Sequence record: OK272470.1
DNA: 64,000 bases
Reading direction: 5' to 3' (one strand)
DNA from: Escherichia phage JLBYU50
Position numbers and translations under genes: made by a program. Of the stretch, positions 39,403 through 54,183 are shown piece after piece. How positions within the stretch are numbered: the first letter of the stretch is position 1; each line of letters starts with the position of its first letter. Below the pieces are notes generated by a model, which saw only the letters and a list, made by a program, of their open reading frames with translations, was not told the origin of the DNA and ran no database searches.

Positions 39403-41976
39403 ATGTCAACTACAATTACTAATTTACCCGAAACATCAAAAGTTAATGGTTCTGATTACCTGGTTTTAGACCAACCTGATAAGACTGTTAAAAGCACAGT
39501 TTCCAACTTTCTTGCTGACACTGGGGTGGTTTTAGCCACCCAGTTGAAAGATACAGATGGAGCAGATTTAATACAATCCTCAAATGGTAATACTGTTCAG
39601 GAAGAGTTGAATAACAATCTTCTTAATGATCGTGAACAGTGGCATCGTAGTCTTGCTGAGGCAGGGTTAACCCTTGTCAACGGTAGCTTTGAAGAAGGGG
39701 CTACAGTAAACAATAAGACGGATGCTGTTTGGCATATTGCTGGTGGGCAGTGCTATACGTGGGGTGGTGAATTTCCTAAAACAGTAGCTGCTGGTTCAAC
39801 TCCAGAAACATCTGGTGGCATTGGTCTTGGTGCATGGGTTAGTGTTGTGGATATGTCATTAAGGGATAATCTTTCAAACTCCAGTAATGATAATTACGGT
39901 GATGCGCTGGTAGCAGTTAAGCAGCCGTATACTACCGCAATAAGTAGAACGCAGCATGATAAAAATGCTGATGTACTTGATATTTCGGATTTTGGTGTAG
40001 ACATAACTGGTGCTTCTGATGAGGGTAGTAAGTTACAACAGATATTTAATGAGTTGGCCGCAGCAGGCAAGACTATTCGTATGCGCGGTTCTGTAAAGAC
40101 TACTATTAACCTAGATATAAGGTGTAACGTGCTGTTTGAGCAGGGTTTCAAACTAACTGGCGTGAAACTAGAAACTGGACCTCAGACTTACATTAATATT
40201 TTTAATCGTAATGTAGATGTAAGCCATATTATCCTAGATGGTATTGTTATGTGTTTCTACCCCGTAAGTTCCACTACTACTGTTAGAAACAAAAGATGTA
40301 TTACGTTTACATCCAACACGTTAGAAGATTCATGTGTTCAGGTGGGCGGTAATAACCTATCTGTACGTAACGTGTTAATTTCTAACAATACTTTTAAGAA
40401 CTCTGGGTCACGTATTCCAACAGCAATTCGCCTAACTAATGTCTCAAATATTGAGGTGAGTTTTAACCTTATCCATGAGTATGGTAGACCTATTTACCAA
40501 ACAGCAACCCGCTCTTTCTCCAACTACAATGTCAATATACACCACAATAATATGGTTTGTGAGTATGGTATAACTCTTGCGGGTACTACTGCTTTTAGGG
40601 TTAGTAAGTTCACAATTGCTGACAATGACATTGTTTGCGAGGTAAGAAATACAGCAACAGGTGGTCGGGATGGTATTGATGTAGTTTATGGTACTAGTGG
40701 TTTGATTACTAACAATAACATAAGGACAAACGGAAGAAGCCTTAGACTGTCTAATACTAAGGTAGATGTACTGTTTAACGATATGATATCCAGCGCAACC
40801 AGTGCATTCTCAGTATTAATGGCGAGTTGTTATGAGTCATCATTTGTTGGTAACACTGTTTTCAATAACTCAACTGCTGAAATTATTGTTGTACATGTGC
40901 AGGATGAAGCTGGTGGGCTTTACCGGAGTAATAACATTCGTGTGGAATCTAATACAATCAAGGGATTTGGTAGGCTGATTCGGGTATTAGATACAAAGGA
41001 TTATGTTGTCATCAATAACAGATTAATCAGAACATCAAACAATGGTAATGCAGTTATTATTGCGGATGGGACTAGTGACAGAGGCCAGGTGCATAGCAAT
41101 GTGGTAGTTGGTCCTGCTGGAGTGGTAGTATCTGATATAGGCGGAACCAACAATGCAACAACCCCTGCTGATACACTGCTGAGTGTTGCAGCTAACAGCA
41201 AGACCATAACAGCCGTGGCGAATGGATTAGTTGATCCAGACTTGAATAATTCGAAGGCATTCATCTTCAATGTTCAGGTGTCTGATGTTCAACTATTACG
41301 TGCGGTATCTTCTACAGGCTCAGGAAATGCTAAAACCGTATCTCAGTTCATGTCGGGTATAACTGGGGCAACTCTGGCATGGAATGGTACTGCCTTCCTA
41401 TCAGAGATGTCTGGACCACCAGATATATTTGTGAATGGTGTACTTCAAGATTCCTATGGTGCAGAAGACTATGTGTTCTACAGATCAGGGATGCTTATTG
41501 ATTCCCAGAATAAACTCAGTGTTAGAGACTTCCAGTGTATTGGGGATGGGGATACCATAAACGATGGGACTGGTAATATGACCCTTCGTAATATGGCAGC
41601 AGCACAATCGGCTGAGGGCGCTATTCACAGTGCTTTCTTCCGTGCTCCTCTTGTTATGAATGGCTCAGTGTATGACCCTACAGTAACAGGTATTGCATCT
41701 TCAGATTTGTTTAGCACAGCTCTAGATCCAAGAATGGCTATAGGACAAAAAGCTGATGGAACCTACGTTATTATTTGTGTTAATGGCAGAAACGCAGATG
41801 GGGTAAGTCCAGGCTGCACTATGCAGCAGCTAGCTTCTAAGTTTGTAGCCCTTGGTTGTATCAACGCAATGAATTTGGATGGCGGCGGTTCAGCTACTCT
41901 TTGGTATAACGGTGCTATCATTAATGACCCGGCGGATGGAAGTGAACGCCCTGTTTACCATTGTATGTATGTGTAA
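39403..41976 (+). CDS. tailspike-like protein: beta-helix body plus C-terminal NLDGGGS domain
   Basis: N/V/I-rich repetitive beta-helix-like middle region; C-terminal ...CINAMNLDGGGSATLWYNGAIINDPADGSERPVYHCM resembles the phosphodiester-glycosidase (NAGPA/DUF2233-type) signature. Confidence 0.55.
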   Translation: MSTTITNLPETSKVNGSDYLVLDQPDKTVKSTVSNFLADTGVVLATQLKDTDGADLIQSSNGNTVQEELNNNLLNDREQWHRSLAEAGLTLVNGSFEEGATVNNKTDAVWHIAGGQCYTWGGEFPKTVAAGSTPETSGGIGLGAWVSVVDMSLRDNLSNSSNDNYGDALVAVKQPYTTAISRTQHDKNADVLDISDFGVDITGASDEGSKLQQIFNELAAAGKTIRMRGSVKTTINLDIRCNVLFEQGFKLTGVKLETGPQTYINIFNRNVDVSHIILDGIVMCFYPVSSTTTVRNKRCITFTSNTLEDSCVQVGGNNLSVRNVLISNNTFKNSGSRIPTAIRLTNVSNIEVSFNLIHEYGRPIYQTATRSFSNYNVNIHHNNMVCEYGITLAGTTAFRVSKFTIADNDIVCEVRNTATGGRDGIDVVYGTSGLITNNNIRTNGRSLRLSNTKVDVLFNDMISSATSAFSVLMASCYESSFVGNTVFNNSTAEIIVVHVQDEAGGLYRSNNIRVESNTIKGFGRLIRVLDTKDYVVINNRLIRTSNNGNAVIIADGTSDRGQVHSNVVVGPAGVVVSDIGGTNNATTPADTLLSVAANSKTITAVANGLVDPDLNNSKAFIFNVQVSDVQLLRAVSSTGSGNAKTVSQFMSGITGATLAWNGTAFLSEMSGPPDIFVNGVLQDSYGAEDYVFYRSGMLIDSQNKLSVRDFQCIGDGDTINDGTGNMTLRNMAAAQSAEGAIHSAFFRAPLVMNGSVYDPTVTGIASSDLFSTALDPRMAIGQKADGTYVIICVNGRNADGVSPGCTMQQLASKFVALGCINAMNLDGGGSATLWYNGAIINDPADGSERPVYHCMYV

Positions 41977-42016
41977 TTATCTGGTGGGACTATGCTAATG
42001 GCGTAGATTTCATAGC

Positions 42017-42045
42017 AAAAAAAAACCCCGCTTCGGCGGGGTAAT
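42017..42045. terminator. GC stem-loop CCCCGC-TTCG-GCGGGG flanked by A-run upstream
   Basis: perfect 6-bp stem; A8 run on the 5' side means the U-tract is on the minus strand although flanking genes are on +. Confidence 0.4.
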
Positions 42046-42071
42046 CATTGAGAATAACAATAGGAGTACAT

Positions 42072-42170
42072 ATGGAATCTCAACTCAGTCAACCTAAGCA
42101 GGTTATCAACGTCAAAGTGAACAAGCAGAGTATCGCTCATGATTTAAAAAGTAATGAGAACGCACTATGA
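42072..42170 (+). CDS. small protein (32 aa)
   Basis: below ORF-track cut-off; AGGAG RBS 6 nt upstream; stop TGA overlaps ATG of next gene (ATGA). Confidence 0.3.
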   Translation: MESQLSQPKQVINVKVNKQSIAHDLKSNENAL

Positions 42171-42412
42171 GAAAATTTTTAATAGGTATGTTCTGTACAT
42201 ATCCTGATAATAAAGTCAGTTCTACTAAAGTTTGGAATGCTATTGGTATGATTGTTATGTCCAGTATGTTTATTTATTTGGGAATTGATAAAGAAATTCC
42301 TGAATGGATGGGCTGGGCTTTTGTTTTTATGATCACACCATCCAGACTAATGAAGAATTTAATAGATTTACGTTGGGGCAGATCACCTGCTCCTGATAAG
42401 GAGGATAACTAA
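42167..42412 (+). CDS. small membrane protein with two predicted TM helices (holin-like topology)
   Basis: 81 aa; hydrophobic segments IGMIVMSSMFIYLGI and WMGWAFVFMITP, charged C-terminus. Confidence 0.45.
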   Translation: MRKFLIGMFCTYPDNKVSSTKVWNAIGMIVMSSMFIYLGIDKEIPEWMGWAFVFMITPSRLMKNLIDLRWGRSPAPDKEDN

Positions 42413-43899
42413 TGGCAGATTATGGTTTAACAGATGCTGGTTTTGTAATTCCAACGTTTGATGATATTTTAAATAATTATATGACAGCATTGAAAAACAC
42501 TTTCGGTGCAGATACAGCTACATCTGAAGATACTGTCTTTGGTCAACTGTTTCGTATTATTGCATATACAGATTACACCCTTTGGGAAGGTATGCAAGGT
42601 GTTTACAATACCCAAACCTTAGATGGTGCAGAAGGTATTTACCTTGATGAAATCTTCTCTAAAAGAGGTTTTTATCGTAAAGCTGCTTCTGCTGGTAGTG
42701 GTTATGCTTATGTTAAATCTAACAATAAGGCAGCTTGGACTTATGAACTAAGCACAGATGTTTATTTTAATGCTGATAACGATTTAACATATTATGTCAG
42801 TGCACCGACAATGTTGAATGCTAAGATTGGAGCATATACCATTTCTAAAGCAAACGCAACAGCTTCTGGTGAAACTTCCATTACTTTCTACATTCAAAGT
42901 GCCATTGATGGTGGGCTTAACAGTAAAACACTAAGTCCTAGCAATACAAACTTTATTGTAGACCTCACGAATTTCATTAAAGCTAACGTATCAACAACAG
43001 ATCGTGCTTTAGTATGGAATGATGCTAGTAATGTTTACATGGGTTATAATCCAGAAGATAATGTTAACCCAGTAGGTCTAGTAACACCAGTGAAATTTTA
43101 CGCATCTATTGCAATAGGTACAAAATGGAGTGAAATTCCAGTTACGTGTTCAGACGTTGGTTATAATCCAGTAGGTACAGAAAGTATTACAGGTATTTCT
43201 TCAACGTTTACAGGCTTTTTAGATACAGGTAACTTCTATCCGTTCTCTCCAGGTACAGATGTTGAAACAGATGCAGAATTCCGTTCTCGTTTCAATGATA
43301 ATATGGATGAAGCTAATGCTGCTACTCGTGCTGCTATTGTTAAAGCTCTATTACTGACAGATGGTGTGACAAAGGTTAAGATTTATGATAACCCTACACT
43401 ACACGATCAGGAACATGCTCCAGCTATGACATTCCAGACTATTGTGTATGGTGGTACAGCAGAAGAAGTTGCACAGGTTATTTATAATACTAAGCCTATT
43501 AACACCTTAACTTATGGTACGACAGCAATTACTATCATAACAGAAGATGGTGGTCAAGAAGTAATTCGTTTTTCTCCTGGGGATAATGCGGAATACTCGC
43601 TTAAACTGGTGTATCAAACTGGCAATGGTAGTGTGTTAAGTACAACAGAAAGGGAAAATATTGTTTCTGCTCTTGCAAACTTACAGGCTTATTTTGAATT
43701 AGGGTCAACAGTAACTAACGACCAGATAAAAGGTGTAATTTATTCTGCACTTGCGTTCGGACGCTTGACTTCTCTCCGTGTTTATGTTAAACTTAATACT
43801 GAGGATGACAGTAAATATAATGAGGGAGATATCACTCCAGCGTACAATGTTGTACCATCCTTTGACCTTGATAATATTTCCTACGAGTACGGAGTCTAA
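42412..43899 (+). CDS. baseplate/tail structural protein (495 aa)
   Basis: ORF track; AAGGAGG RBS; start overlaps upstream stop. Confidence 0.45.
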   Translation: MADYGLTDAGFVIPTFDDILNNYMTALKNTFGADTATSEDTVFGQLFRIIAYTDYTLWEGMQGVYNTQTLDGAEGIYLDEIFSKRGFYRKAASAGSGYAYVKSNNKAAWTYELSTDVYFNADNDLTYYVSAPTMLNAKIGAYTISKANATASGETSITFYIQSAIDGGLNSKTLSPSNTNFIVDLTNFIKANVSTTDRALVWNDASNVYMGYNPEDNVNPVGLVTPVKFYASIAIGTKWSEIPVTCSDVGYNPVGTESITGISSTFTGFLDTGNFYPFSPGTDVETDAEFRSRFNDNMDEANAATRAAIVKALLLTDGVTKVKIYDNPTLHDQEHAPAMTFQTIVYGGTAEEVAQVIYNTKPINTLTYGTTAITIITEDGGQEVIRFSPGDNAEYSLKLVYQTGNGSVLSTTERENIVSALANLQAYFELGSTVTNDQIKGVIYSALAFGRLTSLRVYVKLNTEDDSKYNEGDITPAYNVVPSFDLDNISYEYGV

Positions 43900-43901
43900 A
43901 A

Positions 43902-44531
43902 ATGGCAGTGAGTGTTGACCATGTGACAACGTGGGATAGTATCAATGAAGATGTTAAAGACCTACTGATTGAAGATTTTAAATCTTCTCCGAACATTGTC
44001 AAACTACTCTATATCATTTCTAGCGAAAAACAAAAGATAGATCAGGCAATGATCTATCTTGCCAAACACCGCTTAATCTCTACTGCAACTGGTAAGTATT
44101 TAGATCTTATTGGTGAAGAAATGGGGATGGAAAGAAATGGTGCTACAGATGAAGAGTATCGTACAATATTAAAAATCAGGGCTTATCGTGTTGCGTCTTC
44201 TGGTACGCGAGATGATATCATTGATATGTTCGCTCGTTTTACAGGAACAGAAAAAGAAACGATTAATACATACGTTGGATTAAATAAAACATTCGACGTA
44301 TTCTTTTATAATTTGTGTCTACAATCCGATCAGGCAGTAGCACAGTTACTTAACGTTTTCCCGATCCTAAGTAGTTATCGCTTAGGTGCGAAAGCGGGTT
44401 CAGCCTTTGGTTTCACTTCCTATTATGCCACAAAGCCACCTCATGGTATAGGTGGTTTAGGTTCTCTTTACACAGAGGCTGAAGGAGATGATACAGGGCG
44501 AATGACTATGCTGATAGCTCAAATAGAATAA
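43902..44531 (+). CDS. tail protein (209 aa)
   Basis: ORF track. Confidence 0.4.
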   Translation: MAVSVDHVTTWDSINEDVKDLLIEDFKSSPNIVKLLYIISSEKQKIDQAMIYLAKHRLISTATGKYLDLIGEEMGMERNGATDEEYRTILKIRAYRVASSGTRDDIIDMFARFTGTEKETINTYVGLNKTFDVFFYNLCLQSDQAVAQLLNVFPILSSYRLGAKAGSAFGFTSYYATKPPHGIGGLGSLYTEAEGDDTGRMTMLIAQIE

Positions 44532-44544
44532 GGAGTTACCCTTA

Positions 44545-45528
44545 ATGGCAAAGCCACAATACTACCCTGACTGGGCGACACAAACAGTAACCCTCCCAGG
44601 AACGGGAAACACAAACAAGATTAGACCAAAAGAAACCATCCGTAATGTTGGTATGGACTTTGGTCAGATTATGACTTGTGAAGAAATGAACTGGATCTTA
44701 AACAATATTGGGTCTTGGATTCGCTATATGCAAGATGAATTCTTCCCAACATTGCCTACGACATATCTTCCTATAGTCGGTACTAAAATTACAATGGCAG
44801 GTGATGCTACAGGTGAAGTTACATGGAATGGTAATGCTGCTGTAACATTGTCTATTCAAGTAGTAGATAACAGCCATAATCACTTATCAGCTAACATTAC
44901 AGACGCAACATCAAACCAAGTTGTAGGGAATGTCCTTGTTAAGCGTGATAATGGTGGTGCTATCTATGCAGGTGATATTTACACTTGTGGTACAGGTGCT
45001 ACAGATCCTGCAACATTATTTTTTAGAAACTACAACGGACAAACAGTAGGTAATATGTCCTCTGAACCAGGTGCAGGTGGTCAACTCTATATTTATAGAA
45101 TAAATCCATCTACTGGAGGAACATCTTGTGGAGTCCGTTTGTATGATGCAGGTTATGTTTTAATAGACAATCCTCGTTCTAATTCTGGTCAAGATACTGG
45201 TAATGGTAATGCTCTTGTAAGATTAGATTATCTTAACTCAAGACTAAACTCATTGCAAAGCACACTGCAAAATAATATTAACAACGTTAATAGCAACTTG
45301 CAAGGCCAAATTAATAACATTAACAATAGAGTTTCTTCTGTTGTGTCTGGTATTCGTCTAGGAGCACGTATCCAAGCTGGTGTGTCTGAGTCTCGTTTCT
45401 ATGCTGGTCACGTGATCACAGGTTGGGGCTTTGGTGATAAGAAAGAACTTCGTGGTGCTTGGTATTGGTCAGCCCCGCTACAATATTATATTAATGGTAG
45501 CTGGATAACAGTAACCAACGTTTCATAA
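44545..45528 (+). CDS. tail fibre protein (327 aa)
   Basis: ORF track; AAGGAG RBS; Gly/Asn/Ser-rich repetitive region and N/Q-rich coiled segment. Confidence 0.5.
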   Translation: MAKPQYYPDWATQTVTLPGTGNTNKIRPKETIRNVGMDFGQIMTCEEMNWILNNIGSWIRYMQDEFFPTLPTTYLPIVGTKITMAGDATGEVTWNGNAAVTLSIQVVDNSHNHLSANITDATSNQVVGNVLVKRDNGGAIYAGDIYTCGTGATDPATLFFRNYNGQTVGNMSSEPGAGGQLYIYRINPSTGGTSCGVRLYDAGYVLIDNPRSNSGQDTGNGNALVRLDYLNSRLNSLQSTLQNNINNVNSNLQGQINNINNRVSSVVSGIRLGARIQAGVSESRFYAGHVITGWGFGDKKELRGAWYWSAPLQYYINGSWITVTNVS

Positions 45529-45537
45529 GGAGAGTCT

Positions 45538-46089
45538 ATGAAAAAAGATGTTATTTTTACAGGTTTTGAATTGTACGAACCGGAATTAACAGAGGAAAAC
45601 ATTCTTTATCTTTCTGTTGGCGGTGGTTTTTTGCAAGACAAGGATGGTAATGATTGGTATCAACTTCAAAAAACCTTGATGGCTGAATATCCCGACGCTT
45701 ATTTTATTACCTTAGATGATAATAATATTGTACGTGGTGCTACTAAAGATGTTACTACCTATTTCCCTGCCGGACAATCTATTTTAGTTACATATAATGC
45801 ACCAGATAAAATAGAAGATGAAAGTAATATTGGCTCTTGGCAATATGTTAAAGGTAAATTTGTTCCTCACAATAGTCTTGCTATTGAAGATGCTACTCTT
45901 AAGTTAGAAAAGGAGTTAACTTGGGCTACGAATCAAGTGTCTGCGATTCAAGATTTAGAGGAATTACAAGGTTTATCTGAAGAACAAAAAGATTGGTTAG
46001 GAAAAGTTAAACTCTATCGTGCAACATTAATTCAAATTAACGTTGAAGATGCACCTAATATAACTTGGCCTACAAGACCTAAGAAATAG
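45538..46089 (+). CDS. tail fibre assembly/accessory protein (183 aa)
   Basis: ORF track; immediately downstream of fibre gene; AAGGAGAG RBS. Confidence 0.4.
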   Translation: MKKDVIFTGFELYEPELTEENILYLSVGGGFLQDKDGNDWYQLQKTLMAEYPDAYFITLDDNNIVRGATKDVTTYFPAGQSILVTYNAPDKIEDESNIGSWQYVKGKFVPHNSLAIEDATLKLEKELTWATNQVSAIQDLEELQGLSEEQKDWLGKVKLYRATLIQINVEDAPNITWPTRPKK

Positions 46090-46098
46090 GGGCAATGT

Positions 46099-46440
46099 AT
46101 GGAGCTAACAGAAGTATGGGATATCGCTAAAGAGGCGATTATCCCTCTTATTGGCGTAATCTGGGTGGTCTTCAAACAGAAGATAGATGATATGGCAAGT
46201 GATTTGGATAAAATGGAAGACAAATACCGCGAACTAGAAAAGAAGTTGGTGTTTGTTGAATCCACTTATGCTACCAAAGCGGAACTTGCTCAAATGCTTA
46301 ACCAGATCAACTCTACATTAATGGCAAATAACACTGCCTTAGAACAGAAGATTGAAAAAATAATGGATTTAAAAAATGCTCCTGTTCAATTAATGTTAGA
46401 GGAGATTACGAAGCGCACACAAAGTAAGGACAAAAATTAA
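46099..46440 (+). CDS. small protein with N-terminal hydrophobic helix and coiled coil (113 aa)
   Basis: ORF track; IIPLIGVIWVVF segment then heptad-rich region. Confidence 0.4.
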   Translation: MELTEVWDIAKEAIIPLIGVIWVVFKQKIDDMASDLDKMEDKYRELEKKLVFVESTYATKAELAQMLNQINSTLMANNTALEQKIEKIMDLKNAPVQLMLEEITKRTQSKDKN

Positions 46441-48854
46441 TGGCGAATTTTCCAACATATCCTGCTACGACACTAGAACAAGGTGTTGATCTGGTTATAT
46501 TCTCGTCTAACCAGATGCATGATGTTATTAATGGGGATGCTACAGCAACTGTAGAAACCGAAACAGGTTTAATACCTACACTGCGTAAAGCACTTGTTGA
46601 TAACTTCTTCTTTAAGAGTCCTGTTGCTTGGTCAGCAGGATCAACTGAAACTGTATTTAACCAGTTACGTTATTTTGAAAACGGTATCTTGAGTGGGTAC
46701 TATTATGCCCCATCTGCCACTACTGCGAACCCTGTACCTATGCAGGGAACACCTGTAGGAGACAGTAACTGGACTCTGTACGCTCTTAAAACTGAACAGT
46801 TAGCTTCAGATGTGTATCCTTGGTATTTTAAAGGTGCTACAGGATATGAAACAGAAATCAGTCCTCCTTATATCTTTGATAATGCTATTGTCACCATTAA
46901 CGGTGTAATTCAGATTCAAGGTGAAGCATTTACTATCAAAGATAGTAAAATTATTCTGGCAGAACCATTAGGTTTAGATCCGTCTACTGGTCTACCTAAC
47001 AAATTGTTTGCTTTTATTGGTAAAACAACAGCCTCTACTTCTTACGTAGAGAAAAACCTTTTGTCATCCACCACTGGTGCAGCAATGGTTGGTCTTCCAT
47101 CTGGAGGCAACCTGTTACAAGCTCAATACTTTGTAACGCCTGAGCAGTTTGGTGCAATTGGTGATGGAGTTACCGATGATACTCAAGCAATTTTAAAAAC
47201 CATTACTTTCGCTAACACGAATAACATTCAAGTACGTGCAGATAAGAATTATAGATTCACAAGCTCAATTGCTATGTCTGGTATTCGTTGGTATGGTGGT
47301 ACATTCACTGGTAACGGTGGAACAATGATTTCTACTGTGTCCTGTTGGATGGAAAACGTTCGCTTTGAAAAATGTTATGTTAAGATGTTAGGTGGTGATT
47401 GCCGATTCTATCGTAATATCTTCTCCAATGCAACATCTACAGCAGCATTCTTAATGCAAGCAATGACAAGTGAAGGTACGTTGGACTTCAGTTACAACGA
47501 AATGTATGGTTGTAAATATGCGATCCTGCAACAAGGTACTGGAGAAGTAATGACCTACGGGCGTTACTCTAACAACTATATTCACGATATTAAAGGTGAT
47601 GCTATTGAACTTAACGTAGTTCAAAAACACTACACTGAAGGTTTGATTATCGAGAATAACCACATTGCTAACGTAGATGCTTCTGGACAAGGGGCAAACT
47701 GGGGTATTGGTATTGGTGTAGCAGGTAGTGGCCCATATGGTGTTGATGTTCCTGATTCACAATATGTACGTAATTTCAGTATCGTTGGGAATAGGGTTTA
47801 CAATTGCCGTCAATGTTTACACGTTGAAATGGGTAAAAACTTCACAATACGTGATAATGAAGTTTATCCTAACACAGCAGTTTCAACAGGTACAGGTTTA
47901 ACTACTTGTGGTGTTGCATTATACGGATGCCAAGATTTTGAAGTTGATGGTTTAACTGGTTATCTGCTTAATGATCCATCTGTTTCAACACGCATGGTCT
48001 TTATTGACTGGGGTGTTAACAGTGGAAGATATGCGGGGCCACCAATTAACTTTACAATTAAGAATTTGGATATTCCAGAATCTTCAATTGAGATTGCAAC
48101 ATCTGGATCAGATGACTGGGAAAACTCTACAATTGTTAGTAATATCAATTGTAATGTTTTTAAATGGCGTGGGCTACCATCTAGCTCTACCTTTAATAAT
48201 ATTCGTTGCCGTAGTATTGACTTTATTGGTCAACACGGAAGCGGAGAAGGAAGTGGTGGCGGTTTCTATACTCGCAGCCAATTCACGTATATGAAGTGGG
48301 TAGGATGTACAGCACTTAGCGGAGATGAAACAACAGTTTCTTTTGCTAAAATCTACACTGATCGTTGCGATCAGGTTGGAAATAACTTTGGTGTTCCAAC
48401 TGCTGTTGATGGTACAGGTCATCGTGGGCCAGTTTTAACTACTATTTCTGAACAATATTTTACAGCTTATGATGAATTCCCAGGTGGGCGTGAATTCCCT
48501 ACTGGAACAGTTATTCATTGTGCAAGCGGTAAAAAACATGTTGTTACAGTAGGTGGTGCTTTCTTTAGTGCCAACGAGAAAATAAAAGCAACTGTTACAG
48601 GTCAAACCTATCTACAGTCTAATGCTTTAAACTGGGCTAGTAATGGCTACGCTAAAGCAGCAGGTACTAAGATTGTTATTCCAGGTGCAGGTGCAAATGG
48701 CGGCGATCTTGTGACAACTATAGCACGTGCTACATATGTGACAAATAGTTTGTACACAATAGATATTGCAGATCCAATTGTAACACCTACAGCAGAGAAT
48801 ACACAAATTAAAGCTCTGAACCCTGTTACTTTTGTTACTGTCAATAATGCTTAA
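46440..48854 (+). CDS. tailspike with pectate-lyase-type beta-helix (depolymerase-like)
   Basis: FGAIGDGVTDDTQAI near 47147-47190, hallmark N-terminal cap of pectate-lyase-fold tailspikes; 804 aa. Confidence 0.65.
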   Translation: MANFPTYPATTLEQGVDLVIFSSNQMHDVINGDATATVETETGLIPTLRKALVDNFFFKSPVAWSAGSTETVFNQLRYFENGILSGYYYAPSATTANPVPMQGTPVGDSNWTLYALKTEQLASDVYPWYFKGATGYETEISPPYIFDNAIVTINGVIQIQGEAFTIKDSKIILAEPLGLDPSTGLPNKLFAFIGKTTASTSYVEKNLLSSTTGAAMVGLPSGGNLLQAQYFVTPEQFGAIGDGVTDDTQAILKTITFANTNNIQVRADKNYRFTSSIAMSGIRWYGGTFTGNGGTMISTVSCWMENVRFEKCYVKMLGGDCRFYRNIFSNATSTAAFLMQAMTSEGTLDFSYNEMYGCKYAILQQGTGEVMTYGRYSNNYIHDIKGDAIELNVVQKHYTEGLIIENNHIANVDASGQGANWGIGIGVAGSGPYGVDVPDSQYVRNFSIVGNRVYNCRQCLHVEMGKNFTIRDNEVYPNTAVSTGTGLTTCGVALYGCQDFEVDGLTGYLLNDPSVSTRMVFIDWGVNSGRYAGPPINFTIKNLDIPESSIEIATSGSDDWENSTIVSNINCNVFKWRGLPSSSTFNNIRCRSIDFIGQHGSGEGSGGGFYTRSQFTYMKWVGCTALSGDETTVSFAKIYTDRCDQVGNNFGVPTAVDGTGHRGPVLTTISEQYFTAYDEFPGGREFPTGTVIHCASGKKHVVTVGGAFFSANEKIKATVTGQTYLQSNALNWASNGYAKAAGTKIVIPGAGANGGDLVTTIARATYVTNSLYTIDIADPIVTPTAENTQIKALNPVTFVTVNNA

Positions 48855-48857
48855 TTA

Positions 48858-48882
48858 AAAAGGGGCGAAAGCCCCTTTATAA
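48858..48882 (+). terminator. rho-independent terminator-like hairpin
   Basis: AAAGGGGC-GAAA-GCCCCTTT followed by ATAAAAGG. Confidence 0.5.
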
Positions 48883-48895
48883 AAGGAGTAGTAAA

Positions 48896-50857
48896 GTGAT
48901 TTTAACACGTCCAAATAGTGCCATTGCAGACATGGTAGAGTCTCGCTATAGAAAGCGTAGAAGTTTTGCAAGTGGTTTTACCTTAAGAGATGCTCGTGAA
49001 GCATTGCTCTTTGAAGCTGACGGTAACTACTATCAGTGGAAAGGTTCTCTACCTAAAGTTGTACCTGCTAACTCTACTCCTACATCTACTGGAGGGATTT
49101 CAGATACAGCTTGGAAAAATGTGGGTAATGCAGATGACATTGCTCAAATAGAATCAGAATTAGATGCTATTGAAGCTGAAATTGAAGATCTTAGAGAATC
49201 CATTCCAGAAGCTGGTAAATCAGCTTACCAGATTGCCGTAGACAATGGTTTCCAAGGTACTGAGACAGACTGGTTGGCTTCTTTAAAAGGTGATCCAGGT
49301 GCTCCATTAAAGCTGCTAGGGACGCTATCTAATACCAACCAATTACCTACAACTGGAAACAATGCAGGAGATGCATGGATTGTAGGCGAGAATATGTATG
49401 CTTGGGATGGTACTGCTTGGAGAAAAGTAAACTCACAGGGGCCAGAAGGTAAATCAGCTTATCAAGTTTGGCTTGCAGCAGGAAACCAAGGTACAGAACT
49501 AGATTATCTTGCTTCAATTAAAGGTGATAAAGGGGAACCTGGCCCAGAGGGGCCACAAGGTGTGCCAGGTAACAATGCTAATGGTTTTGATTACCAAGGT
49601 GCAGCTAATTCCGTTTCAGATCTTCCTTCTGCATCTCCTGGAAACACATCTCAAGCATGGAGTATTGGTACATATCTATACGTGTCAAACGGTGTAGAAT
49701 GGATCAATATGGGCGCTATAGTGGGGCCAAAAGGAGATAAAGGCGACAAAGGAGATAAGGGTAACACTGGTGATTCTGCTTATCAAGTCTGGTTAAATGC
49801 TGGTAACGTTGGTACTATTGACGAATATATTGCCTCTCTGAAAGGAGAAAAAGGTGATAAGGGAGACAAGGGTGATCAAGGTGAGCAGGGTATACAAGGC
49901 TTGACGGGGCCAACTGGTGCAGGGTTGACAATTATTGATATTCTGACTGACACTTCTGAACTACCACAAACTGGAGAAGATGGTGATGGTTATCTGATCA
50001 ATAATGAACTTTGGGTTTGGTTGCAAGGAGCCACACAGTGGACAAATGTTGGTCGTTTAGCTGGTACTCCAATCACTGCAAAAGGACACGTTGCGTCTGC
50101 AAGTGCACTTCCTCCTACAGCCAATTACGGTGATGCTTATCTGACGGAAGATACAGGTCATCTTTACATTTACACCTATGATGAACAAACTCAAACTGCT
50201 GAATATGTAGATATGGGTAGTTTGAAAGGTGATAAGGGTGAAAAAGGTGACGCTGGTACTAACGGTACAGACGGTGCAACTTGGATTGTTAAAACAACAG
50301 ATCCAATCTCTAGTGATGGTAAACAAGGTGATTATGCCTTTAATATCTCCACTGGCGAGGTGTTCTTAAAAACATCTGCAACTGCCTGGACTTCTCAAGG
50401 TACACTGCCTAGCATCACAGATGCACCTAGTGACGGTAAAATTTATGCTCGTAAAGATGGAGCATGGGAAGAACTCACTAGTTCTGTAGATGGTCAAGAT
50501 ATAGTTCCAACAAAAGTAACAGCTAATTTTATAGAGGTTACAGCATACACCAACAACTCTGTTACAGGTGACTGGACACCTCCAGGAACACATAACATGA
50601 ATGTGTTGAATCTTACTGGTAACGCTACTATAAAAGCATGGCCTGGTGTCGAAGATAGCACAAAACCTAAACCATTCTCTGCAATAGTTTATCTTATCCA
50701 AGATGCCACTGGGGGTCATACTGTTACTTTAGATCCATCTTACAAAGTAATTGGTTCTAGTGATATTAATACAGATCCTAACGGAGTAACAATACTACAA
50801 CTAACATATTGTGGTATTGGCGATTACGTGGATGCTATTGTTGCTAAACGCACATAA
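48896..50857 (+). CDS. tail fibre with collagen-like G-X-Y tracts and internal triplication
   Basis: GTG start after AAAGGAG; GDKGEPGPEGPQGVPG, GPKGDKGDKGDKGNTGDS, KGEKGDKGDKGDQGEQGIQGLTGPTGAG, GDKGEKGDAGTNGTDGA; three copies of SAYQ.W..AGN.GT..DY.AS.KG. Confidence 0.6.
   Translation: MILTRPNSAIADMVESRYRKRRSFASGFTLRDAREALLFEADGNYYQWKGSLPKVVPANSTPTSTGGISDTAWKNVGNADDIAQIESELDAIEAEIEDLRESIPEAGKSAYQIAVDNGFQGTETDWLASLKGDPGAPLKLLGTLSNTNQLPTTGNNAGDAWIVGENMYAWDGTAWRKVNSQGPEGKSAYQVWLAAGNQGTELDYLASIKGDKGEPGPEGPQGVPGNNANGFDYQGAANSVSDLPSASPGNTSQAWSIGTYLYVSNGVEWINMGAIVGPKGDKGDKGDKGNTGDSAYQVWLNAGNVGTIDEYIASLKGEKGDKGDKGDQGEQGIQGLTGPTGAGLTIIDILTDTSELPQTGEDGDGYLINNELWVWLQGATQWTNVGRLAGTPITAKGHVASASALPPTANYGDAYLTEDTGHLYIYTYDEQTQTAEYVDMGSLKGDKGEKGDAGTNGTDGATWIVKTTDPISSDGKQGDYAFNISTGEVFLKTSATAWTSQGTLPSITDAPSDGKIYARKDGAWEELTSSVDGQDIVPTKVTANFIEVTAYTNNSVTGDWTPPGTHNMNVLNLTGNATIKAWPGVEDSTKPKPFSAIVYLIQDATGGHTVTLDPSYKVIGSSDINTDPNGVTILQLTYCGIGDYVDAIVAKRT
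49520..50280 (+). repeat. collagen-like triplet-repeat coding tracts (GGT/GAT/AAR-rich)
   Basis: repetitive ggtgataarggngan units at about 49522-49570, 49724-49775, 49840-49925 and 50228-50280. Confidence 0.6.
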
Positions 50858-50860
50858 TCA

Positions 50861-50886
50861 AAGCCCCTTCGGGGGCTTATTGTTTA
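50861..50886 (+). terminator. rho-independent terminator
   Basis: AAGCCCC-TTCG-GGGGCTT followed by ATTGTTT. Confidence 0.55.
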
Positions 50887-50896
50887 AGGAGATTAA

Positions 50897-53716
50897 ATGT
50901 ATCCTATTCCTTTATTTATGTCAACAACATCAGCTTCAGTAGTAACAGCTACATCTATAACCACTTCCTCTATTGGTATTGCAATAGTTGGTAGTAAAAA
51001 GCAACTGACATACACAGTTTCACCGGAAGATGGTGCGTTATTTGATATAGCTTTTTCATCTTCAGATAATACCAAAATGGTTATAGATAATAGTGGTATG
51101 ATGGAGTTTGTTGCCGAAGGTGGTTTTGATGCAATAATGACAGCTAAAAATAATTTAGGTGCTGTCTTAACTGATCAATCTGGTGGTTATGCTTCAGAAT
51201 TAAGCGTGTACACTGAAAGTCTATCAGCTATGGATGTAGGCACTACTCAACAGTTGGTTGCTACAATCAGTCCAGAAGGTGCTAAAGATCTTCCAGACAT
51301 GGTAATTACGTACACCACAACAGATCCAGAAGTAGCTACTGTAAGCCCTACAGGATTAATAACTGCTCTTAAAGATGGTAATTGCCGTATAGGTTGTACT
51401 GCAACTTATCAAGGAACAGTGGTGGCCTCTGATAGTTCTTATTTAGGTGTTAATGCTATTCCTGTTATTTCTAATGTAACAGCCGTGGCAAACAGCTATG
51501 GAGACGTTCGTGTTGCTTGGGATGTAGCTGATCCGCTAGATGGTGATACTTATACTGTAGAAGTATTAGATTTAAGTAATAATAGTGTTCAGTGGACTAC
51601 AACAACCACGAATACTTACGCTTACTTTGATATCTCTGACTCTATTCCTCTTTATGGGTTTGCTCCAACATACCTTAAAATTAGCGTTAAGAGCACCAAA
51701 GCAGCAGCCGTTATCTTTAATAACTCAATAGCTACAGATGATTCGTTCATTAAAGAAGTTATTGTTTTTGCTGGACAAGATAACGTAAATGCACACTTTA
51801 CAGAACTATCTGGTGCAAATAAAGCAGCAATGAGTAGCACAACAGCCCGTAATGCATATGCTACGCAACGTGGTTTAGCAAATGCTGAAGTTCTTCCGTT
51901 AAATACAGCTTCTGGATCATCAGCAGCAGATAAATATGCTGACGATAAAGCTGGAACAGGTACACCAGACAACTACTGGTATGATCTGGATAACACAGCA
52001 GATGGGCCATGCTTAACTAACTTTATCACTAAAGTCACACCTTATGCAAGTAAGGTTAAAGCCATTATTTGGGGACAAGGTGAAAATGATGCTGTATCAT
52101 CATCTTCAACTGTTGCAGGTAGATACAGTAACACTACACGTTACCATGATGCTACGATAGCTATCTTTGATAAGATGCGTACAATAGTTCCTGCTTCTCA
52201 AGCAAAAATTGTTTGGCAGATCCTGGGACGTTCTTATTTATATGGTGTAGAAGTTAATGGTGTGGATTGGCAGAAGTACAGAAATGTACAAAGAACCATC
52301 TCTACAGCACGTGATGATGTTATCATTGGTTCTTGGGTAGATGGTGCTGAACGTTACAGTGGTTATGTTTATGAAGAAGGTATTGATGGTCGTATCCATT
52401 ATATTTCTTCTGTATACCAAACAGCAGCTACAAAACTTGCTAAATCAGCAGCAGACGGTACAGACCTAACATCAACGTCACCTGTTTGGGTTGATATGGC
52501 TGTTCCAACTGGAGCAACAGCTACTTCCCAATCTAATCAAGATACAATTTTAGTATGGGATGCTCAAGGCTATAGTAAACACTACTTCCGTAATATTAAC
52601 GTCTTAACAGCATCTGTATTAACTGAACAAACGCTTAATACGAACAGCTATACGTTTACCTATGCAGATCAAGTAGAACAATATGGTTTTGCAGCAGGAA
52701 CTACTATATTTGATGTTGCATATTATGATGAAGCAAATGATGTGTTATCTCCTTTAGTACGTTTTAATGTTAACGTTACAGCAGGAACCGTAGAAGATAA
52801 ACCTGTAGTGATGGATTATGATTTAACACAAGAAACTCTTCCATCAGATGTTAAGGTTAATGGTGGGAACTCTTTTGCTCGTGCTTCTGGAGATACACTT
52901 GTAGCCACTAACACCTTGGTTGCTCCGTTGGAGTATGTTGGCACTACCCCTGTAGGTAGACGTGTAACAGCTAACACAGCTACACAAATTTTTGTCAACA
53001 ACGCCTTAACAAGCGCAAGCCCGTGGGTAAAGACCAACTTAACTGTTTCAACTTCATCTGATAAATCTCCGGCTGGAACTACTGCCAATGTATTCAAATT
53101 AACTCCGACTACAACATCTGGTAGTCATATCTTAACTGCAACATATACTAACGCGTACAACATATATGCCGGACGTAACTGGTCTGCCTCTGTTTTCTTG
53201 AAAGCGAACGGGATTACTAAGGCCAAACTAAGATTAAAAGCAGGAACTGAAGTTAATGAGGGTACTTTTGATTTAGCAGCAGGTACATTTACAGGAAGTG
53301 AAGCTAATATTATATCTATGGGTAACGGTTGGTATCGTGCTATTCTGCATAAAACAGGGATAGCCAAACAGTCCTCCATAAGTTTTGAAATAATTGCCTT
53401 GGATGCAACTGGTGCGGAGATTTTCGCTGGGGATGGTACTAGTAACCTTGCAGTTTGGTTGCCACAGCTTGAAGGTGCTCCTACAGGAGAAACATCAAAA
53501 GCTGGAGCGCCTTATGTCTGCACATATCCTGGAAGTTTAGGAGGAGTATCCTTCACTATACCAAGGAACGGACATACTGGTGTGGATGTTTACTATTCCA
53601 ACGGGGACGTTGTTCGTGACGTATTCTCTGGTACGGCATCTACTTGGACAATAAACTACTCCAGCTTGTACGATTGGGGATCAGTCTTTATTACAGGTTT
53701 GAAATATTACGACTAA
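50897..53716 (+). CDS. tail fibre/adhesin with Ig-like (Big_2-type) segment and SGNH/SASA-like esterase-fold domain
   Basis: 939 aa; VGTTQQLVATISPEG...ATVSPTGLITALKDGNCRIGCTATYQG resembles Big_2; VIVFAGQDN (about 51771) and IWGQGENDA (about 52071) resemble sialate-O-acetylesterase blocks I and III. Confidence 0.55.
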   Translation: MYPIPLFMSTTSASVVTATSITTSSIGIAIVGSKKQLTYTVSPEDGALFDIAFSSSDNTKMVIDNSGMMEFVAEGGFDAIMTAKNNLGAVLTDQSGGYASELSVYTESLSAMDVGTTQQLVATISPEGAKDLPDMVITYTTTDPEVATVSPTGLITALKDGNCRIGCTATYQGTVVASDSSYLGVNAIPVISNVTAVANSYGDVRVAWDVADPLDGDTYTVEVLDLSNNSVQWTTTTTNTYAYFDISDSIPLYGFAPTYLKISVKSTKAAAVIFNNSIATDDSFIKEVIVFAGQDNVNAHFTELSGANKAAMSSTTARNAYATQRGLANAEVLPLNTASGSSAADKYADDKAGTGTPDNYWYDLDNTADGPCLTNFITKVTPYASKVKAIIWGQGENDAVSSSSTVAGRYSNTTRYHDATIAIFDKMRTIVPASQAKIVWQILGRSYLYGVEVNGVDWQKYRNVQRTISTARDDVIIGSWVDGAERYSGYVYEEGIDGRIHYISSVYQTAATKLAKSAADGTDLTSTSPVWVDMAVPTGATATSQSNQDTILVWDAQGYSKHYFRNINVLTASVLTEQTLNTNSYTFTYADQVEQYGFAAGTTIFDVAYYDEANDVLSPLVRFNVNVTAGTVEDKPVVMDYDLTQETLPSDVKVNGGNSFARASGDTLVATNTLVAPLEYVGTTPVGRRVTANTATQIFVNNALTSASPWVKTNLTVSTSSDKSPAGTTANVFKLTPTTTSGSHILTATYTNAYNIYAGRNWSASVFLKANGITKAKLRLKAGTEVNEGTFDLAAGTFTGSEANIISMGNGWYRAILHKTGIAKQSSISFEIIALDATGAEIFAGDGTSNLAVWLPQLEGAPTGETSKAGAPYVCTYPGSLGGVSFTIPRNGHTGVDVYYSNGDVVRDVFSGTASTWTINYSSLYDWGSVFITGLKYYD

Positions 53717-53720
53717 TAAA

Positions 53721-53750
53721 AAAGGAGCCTAATGGCTCCTTTTCTTTTAT
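53721..53750. terminator. bidirectional terminator at convergent junction
   Basis: AAGGAGCC-TAAT-GGCTCCTT flanked by AATAAAAAA upstream and TTTCTTTTAT downstream; separates last + strand gene from first convergent minus-strand gene. Confidence 0.65.
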
Positions 53751-53751
53751 C

Positions 53752-54183
53752 TTAATCAGTGAAAATTACGCTTACATCTTCTTTAGAAAAGAGTTTATGA
53801 TCTTCACCTTTTGTCTCAAGAGTTTCATACAGGTTAAGAAGTTCTGAAACATCTTTCTCTACCAGTTTCTTCAATGTTGCAATTTTCTGTTTGCGATTCT
53901 TAATACGTTCAGCTACAACCTTACGTTGGTATCCAGCAGTACGATAACCTGAGAAAGTTACACCAGTGAGACTTGCAGTTACAGGATCGTAATGACGTTC
54001 AATCTGAAATTTATTAAAAGGTACAGCGTCATCACGAATAATCTTCCCGCCATTACTTACTTGACGAAGACCAGTAACTTGTTCTAGTCGTGCCATAGAA
54101 ATCTTTGGAGACAGACCAGAGTCTAGGTTCATACCATTGTTAATCAGTGCTTTCAGGGTGATTTTGCTGTTCAGTGTACTCAT
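53752..54183 (-). CDS. hypothetical protein (143 aa)
   Basis: ORF track; 5' end overlaps the methyltransferase gene by 44 nt, so the true start may be the internal Met (MNLDSGL). Confidence 0.4.
   Translation of the reverse strand: MSTLNSKITLKALINNGMNLDSGLSPKISMARLEQVTGLRQVSNGGKIIRDDAVPFNKFQIERHYDPVTASLTGVTFSGYRTAGYQRKVVAERIKNRKQKIATLKKLVEKDVSELLNLYETLETKGEDHKLFSKEDVSVIFTD

What the first reader, a model, noticed from the sequence alone, without database searches (positions are those of the whole stretch)
46440..48854. Second depolymerase-type tailspike (pectate-lyase fold), implying dual receptor-degrading specificities
Seen: FGAIGDGVTDDTQAI followed by beta-helix-like repeats in an 804-aa protein, three genes downstream of the other tailspike-like gene. 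Established: this motif caps the beta-helix of many phage polysaccharide depolymerases. Inference: with 39403..41976 the phage carries two distinct enzymatic spikes plus two fibres, suggesting branched receptor-binding apparatus and broad or multi-step host recognition.
Basis: partly seen in the sequence, partly recalled or inferred. Interest (0 to 1): 0.4.

Follow-up and report, generated by a model that had tools for sequence, protein, structure and literature searches.

The report
Phi92-type colanic acid tailspike (known)

Summary
The ORF 46440..48854 (+, 804 aa) and its FGAIGDGVTDDTQAI motif are real. The protein differs at 4 of 804 residues from gp150 of phage phi92, the "colanidase tailspike", whose crystal structure is PDB 6E0V/6E0W. 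The same gene occurs at 95% identity or more in 55 sequenced phi92-like (Justusliebigvirus) genomes. An AlphaFold model matches 6E0V first and then other right-handed beta-helix tailspikes and glycanases, so the fold call is correct. Published biochemistry on gp150 reports hydrolysis, not lyase action. The family signature is GDAIELNV / NWGIGIG / RQxxHxE, which is shared with WcaM of the host's own colanic-acid operon.

The partner spike (39403..41976) is also a beta-helix spike, but it is a swapped cassette. It replaces phi92's endosialidase and carries a C-terminal phosphodiester-glycosidase (NAGPA) domain with an intact DGGGS catalytic loop. Six genes, not three, separate the two spikes. 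The module holds at least six or seven receptor-binding candidates, not four.

Interest is low. The uncharacterised NAGPA spike is the more novel item nearby.

The parts
46440..48854 (+). Complete CDS of the colanidase tailspike, ortholog of phi92 gp150 (804 aa)
   Evidence: 99.3% nt identity to phi92. 800/804 aa identical to phi92 gp150. PDB 6E0V match, 1427 bits. PHROG 6117 'colanic acid degradation', E=4.5e-270. Identical to cluster representative P0001.
46426..46430 (+). Ribosome-binding site AAGGA, 9 nt before the ATG. The ATG overlaps the TAA stop of the upstream gene (46438..46440), suggesting translational coupling.
   Evidence: Same RBS annotated in phi92.
46440..46979 (+). N-terminal virion-anchor module (aa 1-180). 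aa 12-126 are homologous to the baseplate-bound N-terminus of the phiTE long tail fibre.
   Evidence: 9cuy_g residues 15-130, E=9.2e-18. The phiTE LTF residues 14-171 bind wedge 2A and the sheath initiator (PMC11972413). The same N-terminal module (PF26208) is fused to many other C-terminal domains in other proteins. Low pLDDT in the monomer model.
47148..47192 (+).
   Evidence: Model elements E242-246 and H248-261. Weak matches to PF12218 and PF12708 starts. Present in only 9/24 family members.
47184..48392 (+). Right-handed parallel beta-helix catalytic domain (aa 249-651), homologous to E. coli WcaM
   Evidence: Model pLDDT about 90. Foldseek: 6e0v_A E=1.9e-84, then AlgE4/6, Sf6, HK620, CBA120 and phi29 gp12. 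hhalign vs K-12 WcaM probability 100, E=5e-40. TIGR04004 E=1.5e-28.
47595..47618 (+). GDAIELNV motif (aa 386-393) with invariant D387 and near-invariant E390: candidate catalytic acids
   Evidence: Conserved as GDAIEWNV in WcaM.
47697..47717 (+). NWGIGIG motif (aa 420-426), near-invariant in the family and in WcaM
47808..47828 (+). RQCLHVE motif (aa 457-463) with invariant E463 and near-invariant R457 and H461: candidate catalytic or substrate-binding residues
   Evidence: Conserved as RQLIHVE in WcaM.
48549..48815 (+). C-terminal tailspike Ig-like domain (aa 704-792)
   Evidence: Pfam PF20745 TSP_Ig-like, E=2e-14.
48859..48878 (+). GC-rich hairpin AAAGGGGC-GAAA-GCCCCTTT just after the stop codon, before the RBS (48883..48888) and GTG start (48896) of the gp151-type fibre gene
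   Evidence: Not called as a terminator by the scan. Function not tested.
39403..41976 (+). Partner spike in the phi92 gp143 slot. It has a conserved N-terminal adaptor (first ~445 nt), a Tail_spike_N domain, a beta-helix (aa ~190-570) and a C-terminal NAGPA phosphodiester-glycosidase domain (aa 680-857; DGGGS at 41878..41892).
37235..39394 (+). gp142-type receptor-binding protein (N4 gp65/gp64-like TIM-barrel; NGR-glycan binder in the literature)
   Evidence: Pfam PF23845/PF23844. 9lc0 matches. bioRxiv 10.64898/2026.04.02.716166.
34350..37226 (+). gp141-type large tail protein (958 aa)
   Evidence: PHROG 2871. Synteny with phi92. No Pfam or PDB match.
44545..45528 (+). gp147-type short tail fibre (fibre III of phi92), followed by its assembly protein at 45538..46089
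   Evidence: PHROG 4465 and 136. PMC13450770.
48896..50857 (+). gp151-type collagen-like tail fibre with Tail_spike_N domain
50897..53716 (+). 939-aa tail protein with Ig-like and head-spike-fibre domains. It corresponds to phi92 gp152 + gp153 joined, plus two segments absent from phi92.

Best explanation
46440..48854 encodes the Justusliebigvirus (phi92-like) colanidase tailspike, the ortholog of phi92 gp150.

An N-terminal module of about 180 aa anchors a (presumably trimeric) spike to the periphery of the contractile-tail baseplate. The body is a right-handed parallel beta-helix, capped by the helix that follows the FGAIGDG motif. It binds and endo-hydrolyses colanic acid, the Rcs-induced exopolysaccharide of E. 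coli, Salmonella and relatives. The likely catalytic residues are the conserved acids of the GDAIELNV and RQxxHVE motifs (D387/E390 and E463). A C-terminal Ig-like domain closes the spike.

By stripping the slime layer, the spike lets the other receptor-binding proteins (gp142-type NGR binder, variable gp143-slot spike, gp147-type short fibre for the LPS core) reach their receptors. It is therefore the constant 'mucoidy-breaking' blade of a multivalent apparatus, while the gp143 slot is the variable, host-specific blade.

Shown here: identity to gp150, fold, conserved motifs, synteny and modularity. Taken from the literature on a protein 99.5% identical: enzymatic activity and linkage specificity. 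Inferred: the catalytic residues, trimeric state, attachment site and biological role.
For: Sequence identity:
- ORF and motif present.
- 99.3% nt identity to phi92 gene 150, and 95% or more in 55 phage records, often annotated 'colanidase tailspike' or 'colanic acid degradation'.
- 4 aa differences from phi92 gp150, none at conserved positions.
- aa 180-804 match PDB 6E0V 'colanidase tailspike protein gp150 of phage phi92'.
- PHROG 6117, E=4.5e-270.

Fold and motifs:
- AF2 model with high confidence over aa 230-800. Foldseek neighbours are all beta-helix tailspikes or glycanases.
- Family alignment gives invariant D387, E463, Y433 and near-invariant E390, H461, R457, W421.
- The whole beta-helix is homologous to WcaM of the colanic-acid operon, with the same motifs.

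Context and anchoring:
- Same gene order as phi92 gp141-gp153.
- N-terminus homologous to a baseplate-bound fibre anchor solved in situ.

Literature:
- gp150 hydrolyses colanic acid at the beta-1,4 Glc-Fuc linkage (Xu 2025, cited in PMC13450770).
- The phi92 multivalent apparatus has at least five RBPs (PMC5380687).
- Colanidase is the most conserved RBP in the genus (PMC12210895).
- Colanidase-bearing phages clear mucoid lawns and help other phages (PMC4179555).
Against: - The position of gp150 in the phi92 virion is still unconfirmed. The 2026 cryo-EM study could not fit gp150 into 'fibre II' density and lists it only as a candidate (PMC13450770).
- The primary papers (Schwarzer 2012, Xu 2025, Kim 2015) were not readable here, so activity and virion association are cited second-hand.
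- Catalytic residues are inferred from conservation only; model coordinates could not be inspected.
- PHROGs files the family under 'moron/auxiliary', not 'tail'.
Confidence: 0.94

Rival explanations
1. The protein is a soluble, non-virion depolymerase released at lysis (an auxiliary 'moron' enzyme), not a structural tailspike.
For: PHROG 6117 is categorised as 'moron, auxiliary metabolic gene and host takeover'. The 2026 phi92 cryo-EM work did not locate gp150 in the particle.
Against: - The gene sits inside the baseplate/fibre module and is translationally coupled to it.
- It has a ~180-aa N-terminal module homologous to a fibre anchor seen bound to a baseplate in situ. That module is reused with many other C-terminal enzymatic domains, as expected of a virion adaptor.
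- It has a C-terminal TSP_Ig-like domain.
- The PDB depositors and reviews call it a tailspike.
Confidence: 0.06
2. It is a true pectate-lyase-type enzyme that cleaves its uronic-acid-containing substrate by beta-elimination.
For: The fold is pectate-lyase-like. There is a weak PF12708 match to the N-terminal cap (E=0.017). Colanic acid contains glucuronic acid (general knowledge). Polysaccharide lyases and epimerases (AlgE, RbmB, K5 lyase) are among the structural neighbours.
Against: - PF12708 is below its gathering score (15.4 vs 27 bits).
- gp150 is reported to hydrolyse the beta-1,4 Glc-Fuc bond, which is not a uronate linkage.
- The conserved residues are Asp/Glu/His typical of beta-helix glycoside hydrolases.
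- The analogous EPS-operon beta-helix enzyme WceF is a hydrolase.
Confidence: 0.03
3. The spike has drifted to another glycan specificity or lost activity, and now acts only as a binding fibre.
For: Some family members do show altered catalytic motifs (P0005: GDAIHLGS, RHCILIE).
Against: The window protein keeps every invariant residue. It differs from the biochemically and structurally characterised phi92 protein at only four non-conserved positions (282, 528, 559, 711).
Confidence: 0.02

Closest known systems
Phage phi92 gp150, 'colanidase tailspike' (PDB 6E0V apo, 6E0W; GenBank CBY99579 / YP_009012482)
   Same: Same length (804 aa), 800/804 identical residues, same genomic slot between the gp149-type gene and the gp151-type fibre gene, same fold.
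   Different: Four substitutions (I282V, S528N, D559A, A711D, window vs phi92), none at conserved positions. The surrounding apparatus differs: the gp143 slot holds a NAGPA spike instead of an endosialidase, and the gp152/153 gene is intact and longer here.
E. coli WcaM (b2043), Tat-exported protein encoded at the end of the colanic-acid (wca/cps) operon; NCBIfam TIGR04004
   Same: The beta-helix domain is homologous over essentially the whole mature WcaM (hhalign probability 100%, E=5e-40). It shares the motifs YAIL(Q/R)QG, GDAIE(L/W)NV, NWGIGIG and CRQxxHVExG.
   Different: Only 32% identity over the core. The score is far below the equivalog cut-off (99.7 vs 794.6 bits). WcaM has a signal peptide instead of a virion anchor and lacks the C-terminal Ig-like domain. 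WcaM's own activity is not established in anything I could read (annotated 'putative').
Pantoea stewartii WceF (Tat-exported, EPS-operon-encoded, tailspike-like trimeric beta-helix stewartan hydrolase; PMC7949094)
   Same: Same logic: a beta-helix glycanase acting on the exopolysaccharide, with an alpha-helix-capped beta-helix and homologues on both the phage and host sides.
   Different: Different substrate. Sequence relationship to gp150 was not tested here. WceF carries a P22-type head-binding domain.
Classical O-antigen/capsule tailspikes: P22, Sf6, HK620, CBA120 TSP1-4, phi29 gp12
   Same: Right-handed parallel beta-helix body, modular N-terminal anchor, enzymatic receptor destruction.
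   Different: 9-16% sequence identity only. Different anchors: gp150 uses the PF26208-type module, not Tail_spike_N or the P22 head-binding domain, although other members of the colanidase family do use those.
Other phage colanidases (NST1 CAE, J8-65; jumbo phages PBECO4/121Q; Phapecoctavirus phAPEC8; Seunavirus)
   Same: The catalytic module is found in 254 phage records across myo- and podovirus-sized genomes of Enterobacterales, at 27-58% identity outside the genus. Colanidase phages make halos on mucoid E. coli.
   Different: Different N-terminal anchors. Direct homology of NST1/J8-65 to gp150 was not tested here.

Membership tests
phi92 gp150-type colanidase tailspikes (PHROG 6117; precomputed Pfam PF26208 + PF27800) | Near full-length sequence match to the family profile and to gp150 | tested here: met
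   PHROG 6117 E=4.5e-270, aa 172-801 vs profile 98-710/711. 800/804 identical to gp150. P0001 carries PF26208 and PF27800.
phi92 gp150-type colanidase tailspikes (PHROG 6117; precomputed Pfam PF26208 + PF27800) | Right-handed parallel beta-helix body as in PDB 6E0V | tested here: met
   AF2 model. Foldseek top hit 6e0v_A, E=1.9e-84, TM (target-normalised) 0.75.
phi92 gp150-type colanidase tailspikes (PHROG 6117; precomputed Pfam PF26208 + PF27800) | Conserved motifs GDAIELNV, NWGIGIG, RQxxHxE | tested here: met
   All present, at aa 386-393, 420-426 and 457-463.
phi92 gp150-type colanidase tailspikes (PHROG 6117; precomputed Pfam PF26208 + PF27800) | Conserved position in the Justusliebigvirus tail module | tested here: met
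   Collinear with phi92 gp144-gp151 at 97% identity.
phi92 gp150-type colanidase tailspikes (PHROG 6117; precomputed Pfam PF26208 + PF27800) | Hydrolysis of colanic acid | not testable with these tools
   Reported for phi92 gp150 (Xu 2025, as cited in PMC13450770). Needs an enzyme assay for this allele.
phi92 gp150-type colanidase tailspikes (PHROG 6117; precomputed Pfam PF26208 + PF27800) | Trimeric spike incorporated in the virion | not testable with these tools
   Only a monomer was modelled. Placement in phi92 is still unresolved. The N-terminal homology to the phiTE LTF anchor is indirect support.
Pectate lyase / Pect-lyase_RHGA_epim (Pfam PF12708) and polysaccharide lyases | Right-handed parallel beta-helix fold | tested here: met
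Pectate lyase / Pect-lyase_RHGA_epim (Pfam PF12708) and polysaccharide lyases | Match to the Pfam model above its gathering score | tested here: not met
   PF12708 15.4 bits vs cut-off 27, E=0.017, covering only the N-terminal cap.
Pectate lyase / Pect-lyase_RHGA_epim (Pfam PF12708) and polysaccharide lyases | Beta-elimination chemistry | not testable with these tools
   The literature reports hydrolysis. The protein should be described as having the fold, not as a member of the lyase families.
WcaM (NCBIfam TIGR04004 / NF007517, equivalog) | Score above the equivalog cut-off | tested here: not met
   99.7 bits vs 794.6: a homologue, not an equivalog.
WcaM (NCBIfam TIGR04004 / NF007517, equivalog) | Shared beta-helix core and motifs | tested here: met
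   hhalign probability 100%, E=5e-40 over gp150 aa 249-651 and WcaM aa 47-458. BLASTP 32% identity, E=1e-26.
NAGPA / phosphodiester glycosidase (Pfam PF09992), for the partner spike 39403..41976 | Pfam match above the gathering score | tested here: met
   89.2 bits vs 25, aa 680-857, profile 11-168/169.
NAGPA / phosphodiester glycosidase (Pfam PF09992), for the partner spike 39403..41976 | Invariant DGGGS catalytic loop | tested here: met
   D826-S830 is invariant in 10 homologues. It aligns with NLDGGGSAT of 6PKU and 6U11. The motif's role is described in PMC13474241.
NAGPA / phosphodiester glycosidase (Pfam PF09992), for the partner spike 39403..41976 | Cleavage of a sugar-1-phosphodiester | not testable with these tools
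   No characterised tailspike of this type was found.

The most novel reading that the evidence does not exclude
The finding itself (the gp150 colanidase) is known. The most novel reading left open concerns the pairing. In this phage the conserved colanidase is combined with a spike (39403..41976) whose C-terminal NAGPA domain, with an intact DGGGS loop, would cleave sugar-1-phosphate diester linkages in a host O-antigen or capsule. To my knowledge and in the searches made here, no tailspike with that chemistry has been characterised.

A second open reading is that the phage colanidase and host WcaM share one catalytic machinery. That would make WcaM an endogenous colanic-acid hydrolase (chain-length or release control), analogous to WceF.
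Probability: 0.4. Interest if true: 0.4.

Novelty: already known. Interest (0 to 1): 0.1.

Why it matters
For the scan, this flagged gene can be closed out as a textbook member of the phi92 multivalent adsorption apparatus. There is nothing new to discover in 46440..48854 itself.

Practically, colanidase spikes matter because colanic-acid overproduction (mucoidy) is a common route to broad phage resistance in E. coli, and such enzymes are used to make colanic-acid oligosaccharides.

Three points from this work go slightly beyond the annotation:
- The catalytic signature of the family is shared with host WcaM.
- The N-terminal anchor is homologous to a baseplate-bound fibre anchor solved in phage phiTE. 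This could help assign the still-unplaced gp150 in phi92 maps.
- The variable slot of this particular phage carries an uncharacterised phosphodiester-glycosidase spike.

Tried and rejected
- **Pfam at default and relaxed thresholds.** No significant pectate-lyase or beta-helix family hit: only TSP_Ig-like, plus sub-threshold PF12218 and PF12708. The fold had to be shown by structure prediction and Foldseek instead.
- **Primary papers.** Schwarzer 2012 (PMC3457257) and Kim 2015 (PMC4292498) are not held, so virion mass-spectrometry data and the NST1 enzyme could not be checked first-hand.
- **Literature on NAGPA tailspikes.** 'phosphodiester glycosidase' + 'tailspike' gave 0 papers. 'NAGPA' + 'bacteriophage' matched author names such as Nagpal and was useless.
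- **Promoter/terminator scan of 39000..54500.** Counts were no higher than in shuffles, and nothing was informative for gp150.
- **Recent horizontal acquisition of gp150.** Rejected: its GC content (0.38-0.395) equals the local background. The NAGPA segment of the partner spike stands out at 0.44.
- **The motif as the enzyme's functional hallmark.** Rejected, because 15 of 24 family members lack it while keeping the catalytic motifs.
- **Solved-structure searches for the gp141-type and 939-aa proteins.** Nothing useful.
- **NAGPA domain model.** Its AF2 model is low-confidence because the alignment had only 10 sequences, so no structural conclusion was drawn for it.
Full report
**Observation.** The window has an ATG-initiated ORF at 46440..48854 on the + strand encoding 804 aa. 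Its translation contains FGAIGDGVTDDTQAI at residues 237-251. An AAGGA ribosome-binding site lies 9 nt upstream, and the start codon overlaps the TAA stop of the preceding gene (TAATG). The core observation is therefore correct. One detail is not: six ORFs separate this gene from the other spike at 39403..41976, not three. These are the counterparts of phi92 gp144 to gp149.

**Identity.** The DNA is 99.0-99.5% identical to a gene present in 55 phage records, nearly all Escherichia phages of the genus Justusliebigvirus (phi92-like, Stephanstirmvirinae). Many of these are annotated 'colanidase tailspike' or 'colanic acid degradation'; phi92 itself is 99.3% identical. The protein differs from phi92 gp150 at four positions (282, 528, 559, 711). 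It is identical to a cluster representative that stands for 180 sequences. Residues 180-804 match PDB 6E0V/6E0W, 'Bacteriophage Phi92 gp150', at 1427 bits. PHROG 6117 'colanic acid degradation' matches with E=4.5e-270. The surrounding 25 kb is collinear with phi92-like genomes, most completely with phage PHB05 (100% coverage, 96.2% identity). The gene order equals phi92 gp138 to gp163.

**Fold.** Pfam detects only a C-terminal TSP_Ig-like domain (aa 704-792). I therefore built a 24-sequence family alignment and an AlphaFold2 model.
- Residues 230-800 are confidently modelled (pLDDT about 90) as an alpha-helix-capped stack of short beta-strands.
- Foldseek against the PDB returns 6E0V ('Apo crystal structure of the colanidase tailspike protein gp150 of Phage Phi92') at E=1.9e-84.
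- The next hits are exclusively right-handed parallel beta-helix proteins: AlgE4/AlgE6 epimerases, Sf6, HK620 and CBA120 tailspikes, phi29 gp12 and exopolygalacturonase.
The 'pectate-lyase fold' call is right as a fold statement.

**What the motif is.** In the model the motif forms a strand (242-246) and the start of the capping helix (248-261) at the N-terminal end of the beta-helix. Only 9 of the 24 family members carry FGAxGDGxxDDT; the others have unrelated sequence there. It is a structural cap variant shared with many beta-helix enzymes, not the signature of this enzyme family. The family signature is GDAIELNV (D387 invariant, E390 in 96%), NWGIGIG, Y433, and RQxxHVE (R457, H461, E463; E463 invariant). 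I propose D387/E390 and E463 as the catalytic acids. This is inference from conservation only.

**Relation to the host.** NCBIfam matched the core (aa 358-551) to WcaM, the last gene product of the colanic-acid operon (E=1.5e-28, far below the equivalog cut-off). A profile comparison of the phage family with E. coli K-12 WcaM (fetched) gives probability 100% and E=5e-40 over gp150 aa 249-651 and WcaM aa 47-458. All signature motifs are shared. WcaM is a Tat substrate (PMC9604234). A direct precedent exists: Pantoea WceF is Tat-exported, encoded in the stewartan operon, has a tailspike-like trimeric beta-helix, and hydrolyses its own exopolysaccharide (PMC7949094). The phage spike and the host's own colanic-acid operon protein thus share ancestry and probably chemistry.

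**Function from the literature.**
- gp150 of phi92 is listed as the colanidase tailspike among at least five receptor-binding proteins of a multivalent apparatus (PMC5380687 citing Schwarzer 2012).
- It has been reported to hydrolyse the beta-1,4 linkage between glucose and fucose in colanic acid (Xu 2025, as cited by PMC13450770).
- Within the genus it is among the most conserved receptor-binding proteins, while the gp143-type spike is the least conserved (PMC12210895).
- Colanidase-carrying phages give halos on mucoid E. coli and improve access for other phages (PMC4179555).
- On K-12, phi92-like phages use the NGR glycan through gp142 and the LPS core through the short fibre.
The colanidase is therefore best seen as a barrier-removing accessory blade. 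I could not read Schwarzer 2012, Xu 2025 or Kim 2015 directly.

**Attachment.** The position of gp150 in the virion is still open. The 2026 cryo-EM study of phi92 assigned gp147 to fibre III and tentatively gp143 to fibre I, but could not fit gp150 to fibre II. Residues 12-126 of the window protein are homologous (E=9.2e-18) to residues 15-130 of the phage phiTE 'putative tail fiber protein' in the baseplate model 9CUY. The residue range fits the phiTE long tail fibre, whose residues 14-171 were modelled bound to wedge protein 2A and the sheath-initiator C-terminal helix (PMC11972413). That chain g is this fibre is my inference from the residue range. The homology supports direct baseplate anchoring and offers a testable placement for gp150.

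The homology search also shows the expected modularity:
- The N-terminal module (PF26208) is fused elsewhere to other C-terminal domains, including esterase-type and other beta-helix domains.
- The catalytic module (PF27800) is fused elsewhere to Tail_spike_N, P22 head-binding or T7 fibre N-termini.
- The catalytic module also occurs in bacterial genomes.
By tblastn the catalytic module is present in 254 phage records from several genome-size classes and Enterobacterales hosts.

**The partner spike and the count of receptor-binding proteins.** Compared with phi92, window 39555..42171 is replaced. Only the first ~445 nt of 39403..41976 are conserved among relatives, and the full length is matched only by PHB05, at 87%. 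Instead of the phi92 endosialidase, the protein has:
- a Tail_spike_N domain;
- a central beta-helix (pLDDT 80-94 over aa ~190-570), closest to CBA120 TSP3/TSP1;
- a C-terminal NAGPA phosphodiester-glycosidase domain (E=4.6e-25).
The NAGPA domain's DGGGS loop (D826-S830) is invariant in its homologues and aligns with the catalytic loop of solved NAGPA structures. Only about eleven database clusters share this architecture. The closest receptor-binding part (95%) sits in the tail-fibre position of a P2-like 42.7-kb element. The NAGPA segment has a higher GC content (0.44) than its surroundings. 'Two distinct enzymatic spikes' is therefore supported.

It also includes a gp141-type protein, the gp142-type NGR binder, the gp147-type short fibre with its assembly protein, the gp151-type collagen-like fibre, and a 939-aa Ig-domain tail protein.

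**Verdict.** However, the object is phi92 gp150: already sequenced, named, crystallised and biochemically characterised. Novelty: already known. Interest: low. The less ordinary items are outside the finding proper: the NAGPA spike, the WcaM link and the phiTE-type anchor homology.

Noticed in passing
window 39403..41976: The spike in the phi92 gp143 slot is not an endosialidase. It is a beta-helix spike with a C-terminal NAGPA (phosphodiester glycosidase) domain that keeps the invariant DGGGS catalytic loop (41878..41892). Full-length relatives are rare: PHB05 at 87% nt identity, and about 11 protein clusters. The closest receptor-binding part (95%) lies in a P2-like 42.7-kb element (L003 10001..12697). 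No characterised tailspike of this chemistry was found in the literature searched.
   Followed up: partly
window 50897..53716: A single 939-aa tail protein (Big_2 Ig-like domain; 'phage head spike fiber' domain at aa 694-863). It corresponds to phi92 gp152 and gp153 joined, plus two segments absent from phi92 (51487..51704 and 52781..53718). The phi92 reference genome therefore seems to carry a truncated or split version of this gene.
   Followed up: partly
window ~57919 (DNA polymerase gene 57069..59648, - strand): phi92 has a 733-bp insertion in its DNA polymerase I gene relative to this window (phi92 locus L001 24325..25056). The polymerase ORF here is 859 aa versus 1104 aa annotated in phi92. 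This may be an intein or mobile insertion in phi92.
   Followed up: no
window 46099..46440: The gene annotated 'lipoprotein' in relatives (PHROG 15210) encodes a 113-aa protein with no cysteine at all, so it cannot be a lipoprotein. It has an N-terminal hydrophobic segment followed by a charged, coiled-coil-like region, and a weak Rz-like spanin hit. Its stop codon overlaps the colanidase start (TAATG).
   Followed up: partly
GenBank MG065639, MG065645, MG065656 (hits H28-H30, H91): Records named 'Campylobacter phage A150/A145/C3' with host Campylobacter jejuni carry this E. coli phage colanidase gene at 99% identity and have phi92-like genome sizes. This is probably a host mislabel or a contaminating coliphage.
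   Followed up: no
protein P0005 (803 aa, 60% identical to the window protein): A full-length relative with the same N-terminal anchor has altered catalytic motifs (GDAIHLGS, GVGYGIRV, RHCILIE). This suggests a changed specificity or an inactive, binding-only spike.
   Followed up: no
E. coli K-12 wcaM (L002 6503..7897, - strand): Host WcaM, annotated only as 'putative colanic acid biosynthesis protein', shares the whole beta-helix and all signature motifs of the phage colanidase family (hhalign E=5e-40). By analogy with WceF it may be an endogenous colanic-acid hydrolase.
   Followed up: partly
window 48859..48878: A GC-rich hairpin (AAAGGGGC-GAAA-GCCCCTTT) lies between the colanidase stop codon and the RBS/GTG start of the collagen-like fibre gene. 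It has no clear T-tract, so it may be a weak terminator or an RNA-stabilising element.
   Followed up: no
window 37235..39394: The gp142-type protein combines a Calx-beta domain with N4 gp65/gp64-like 'non-contractile tail sheath' N-terminal and TIM-barrel domains. Recent work names it as the NGR-glycan receptor-binding protein of these myoviruses, i.e. a third enzyme-like receptor-binding protein in the module.
   Followed up: partly
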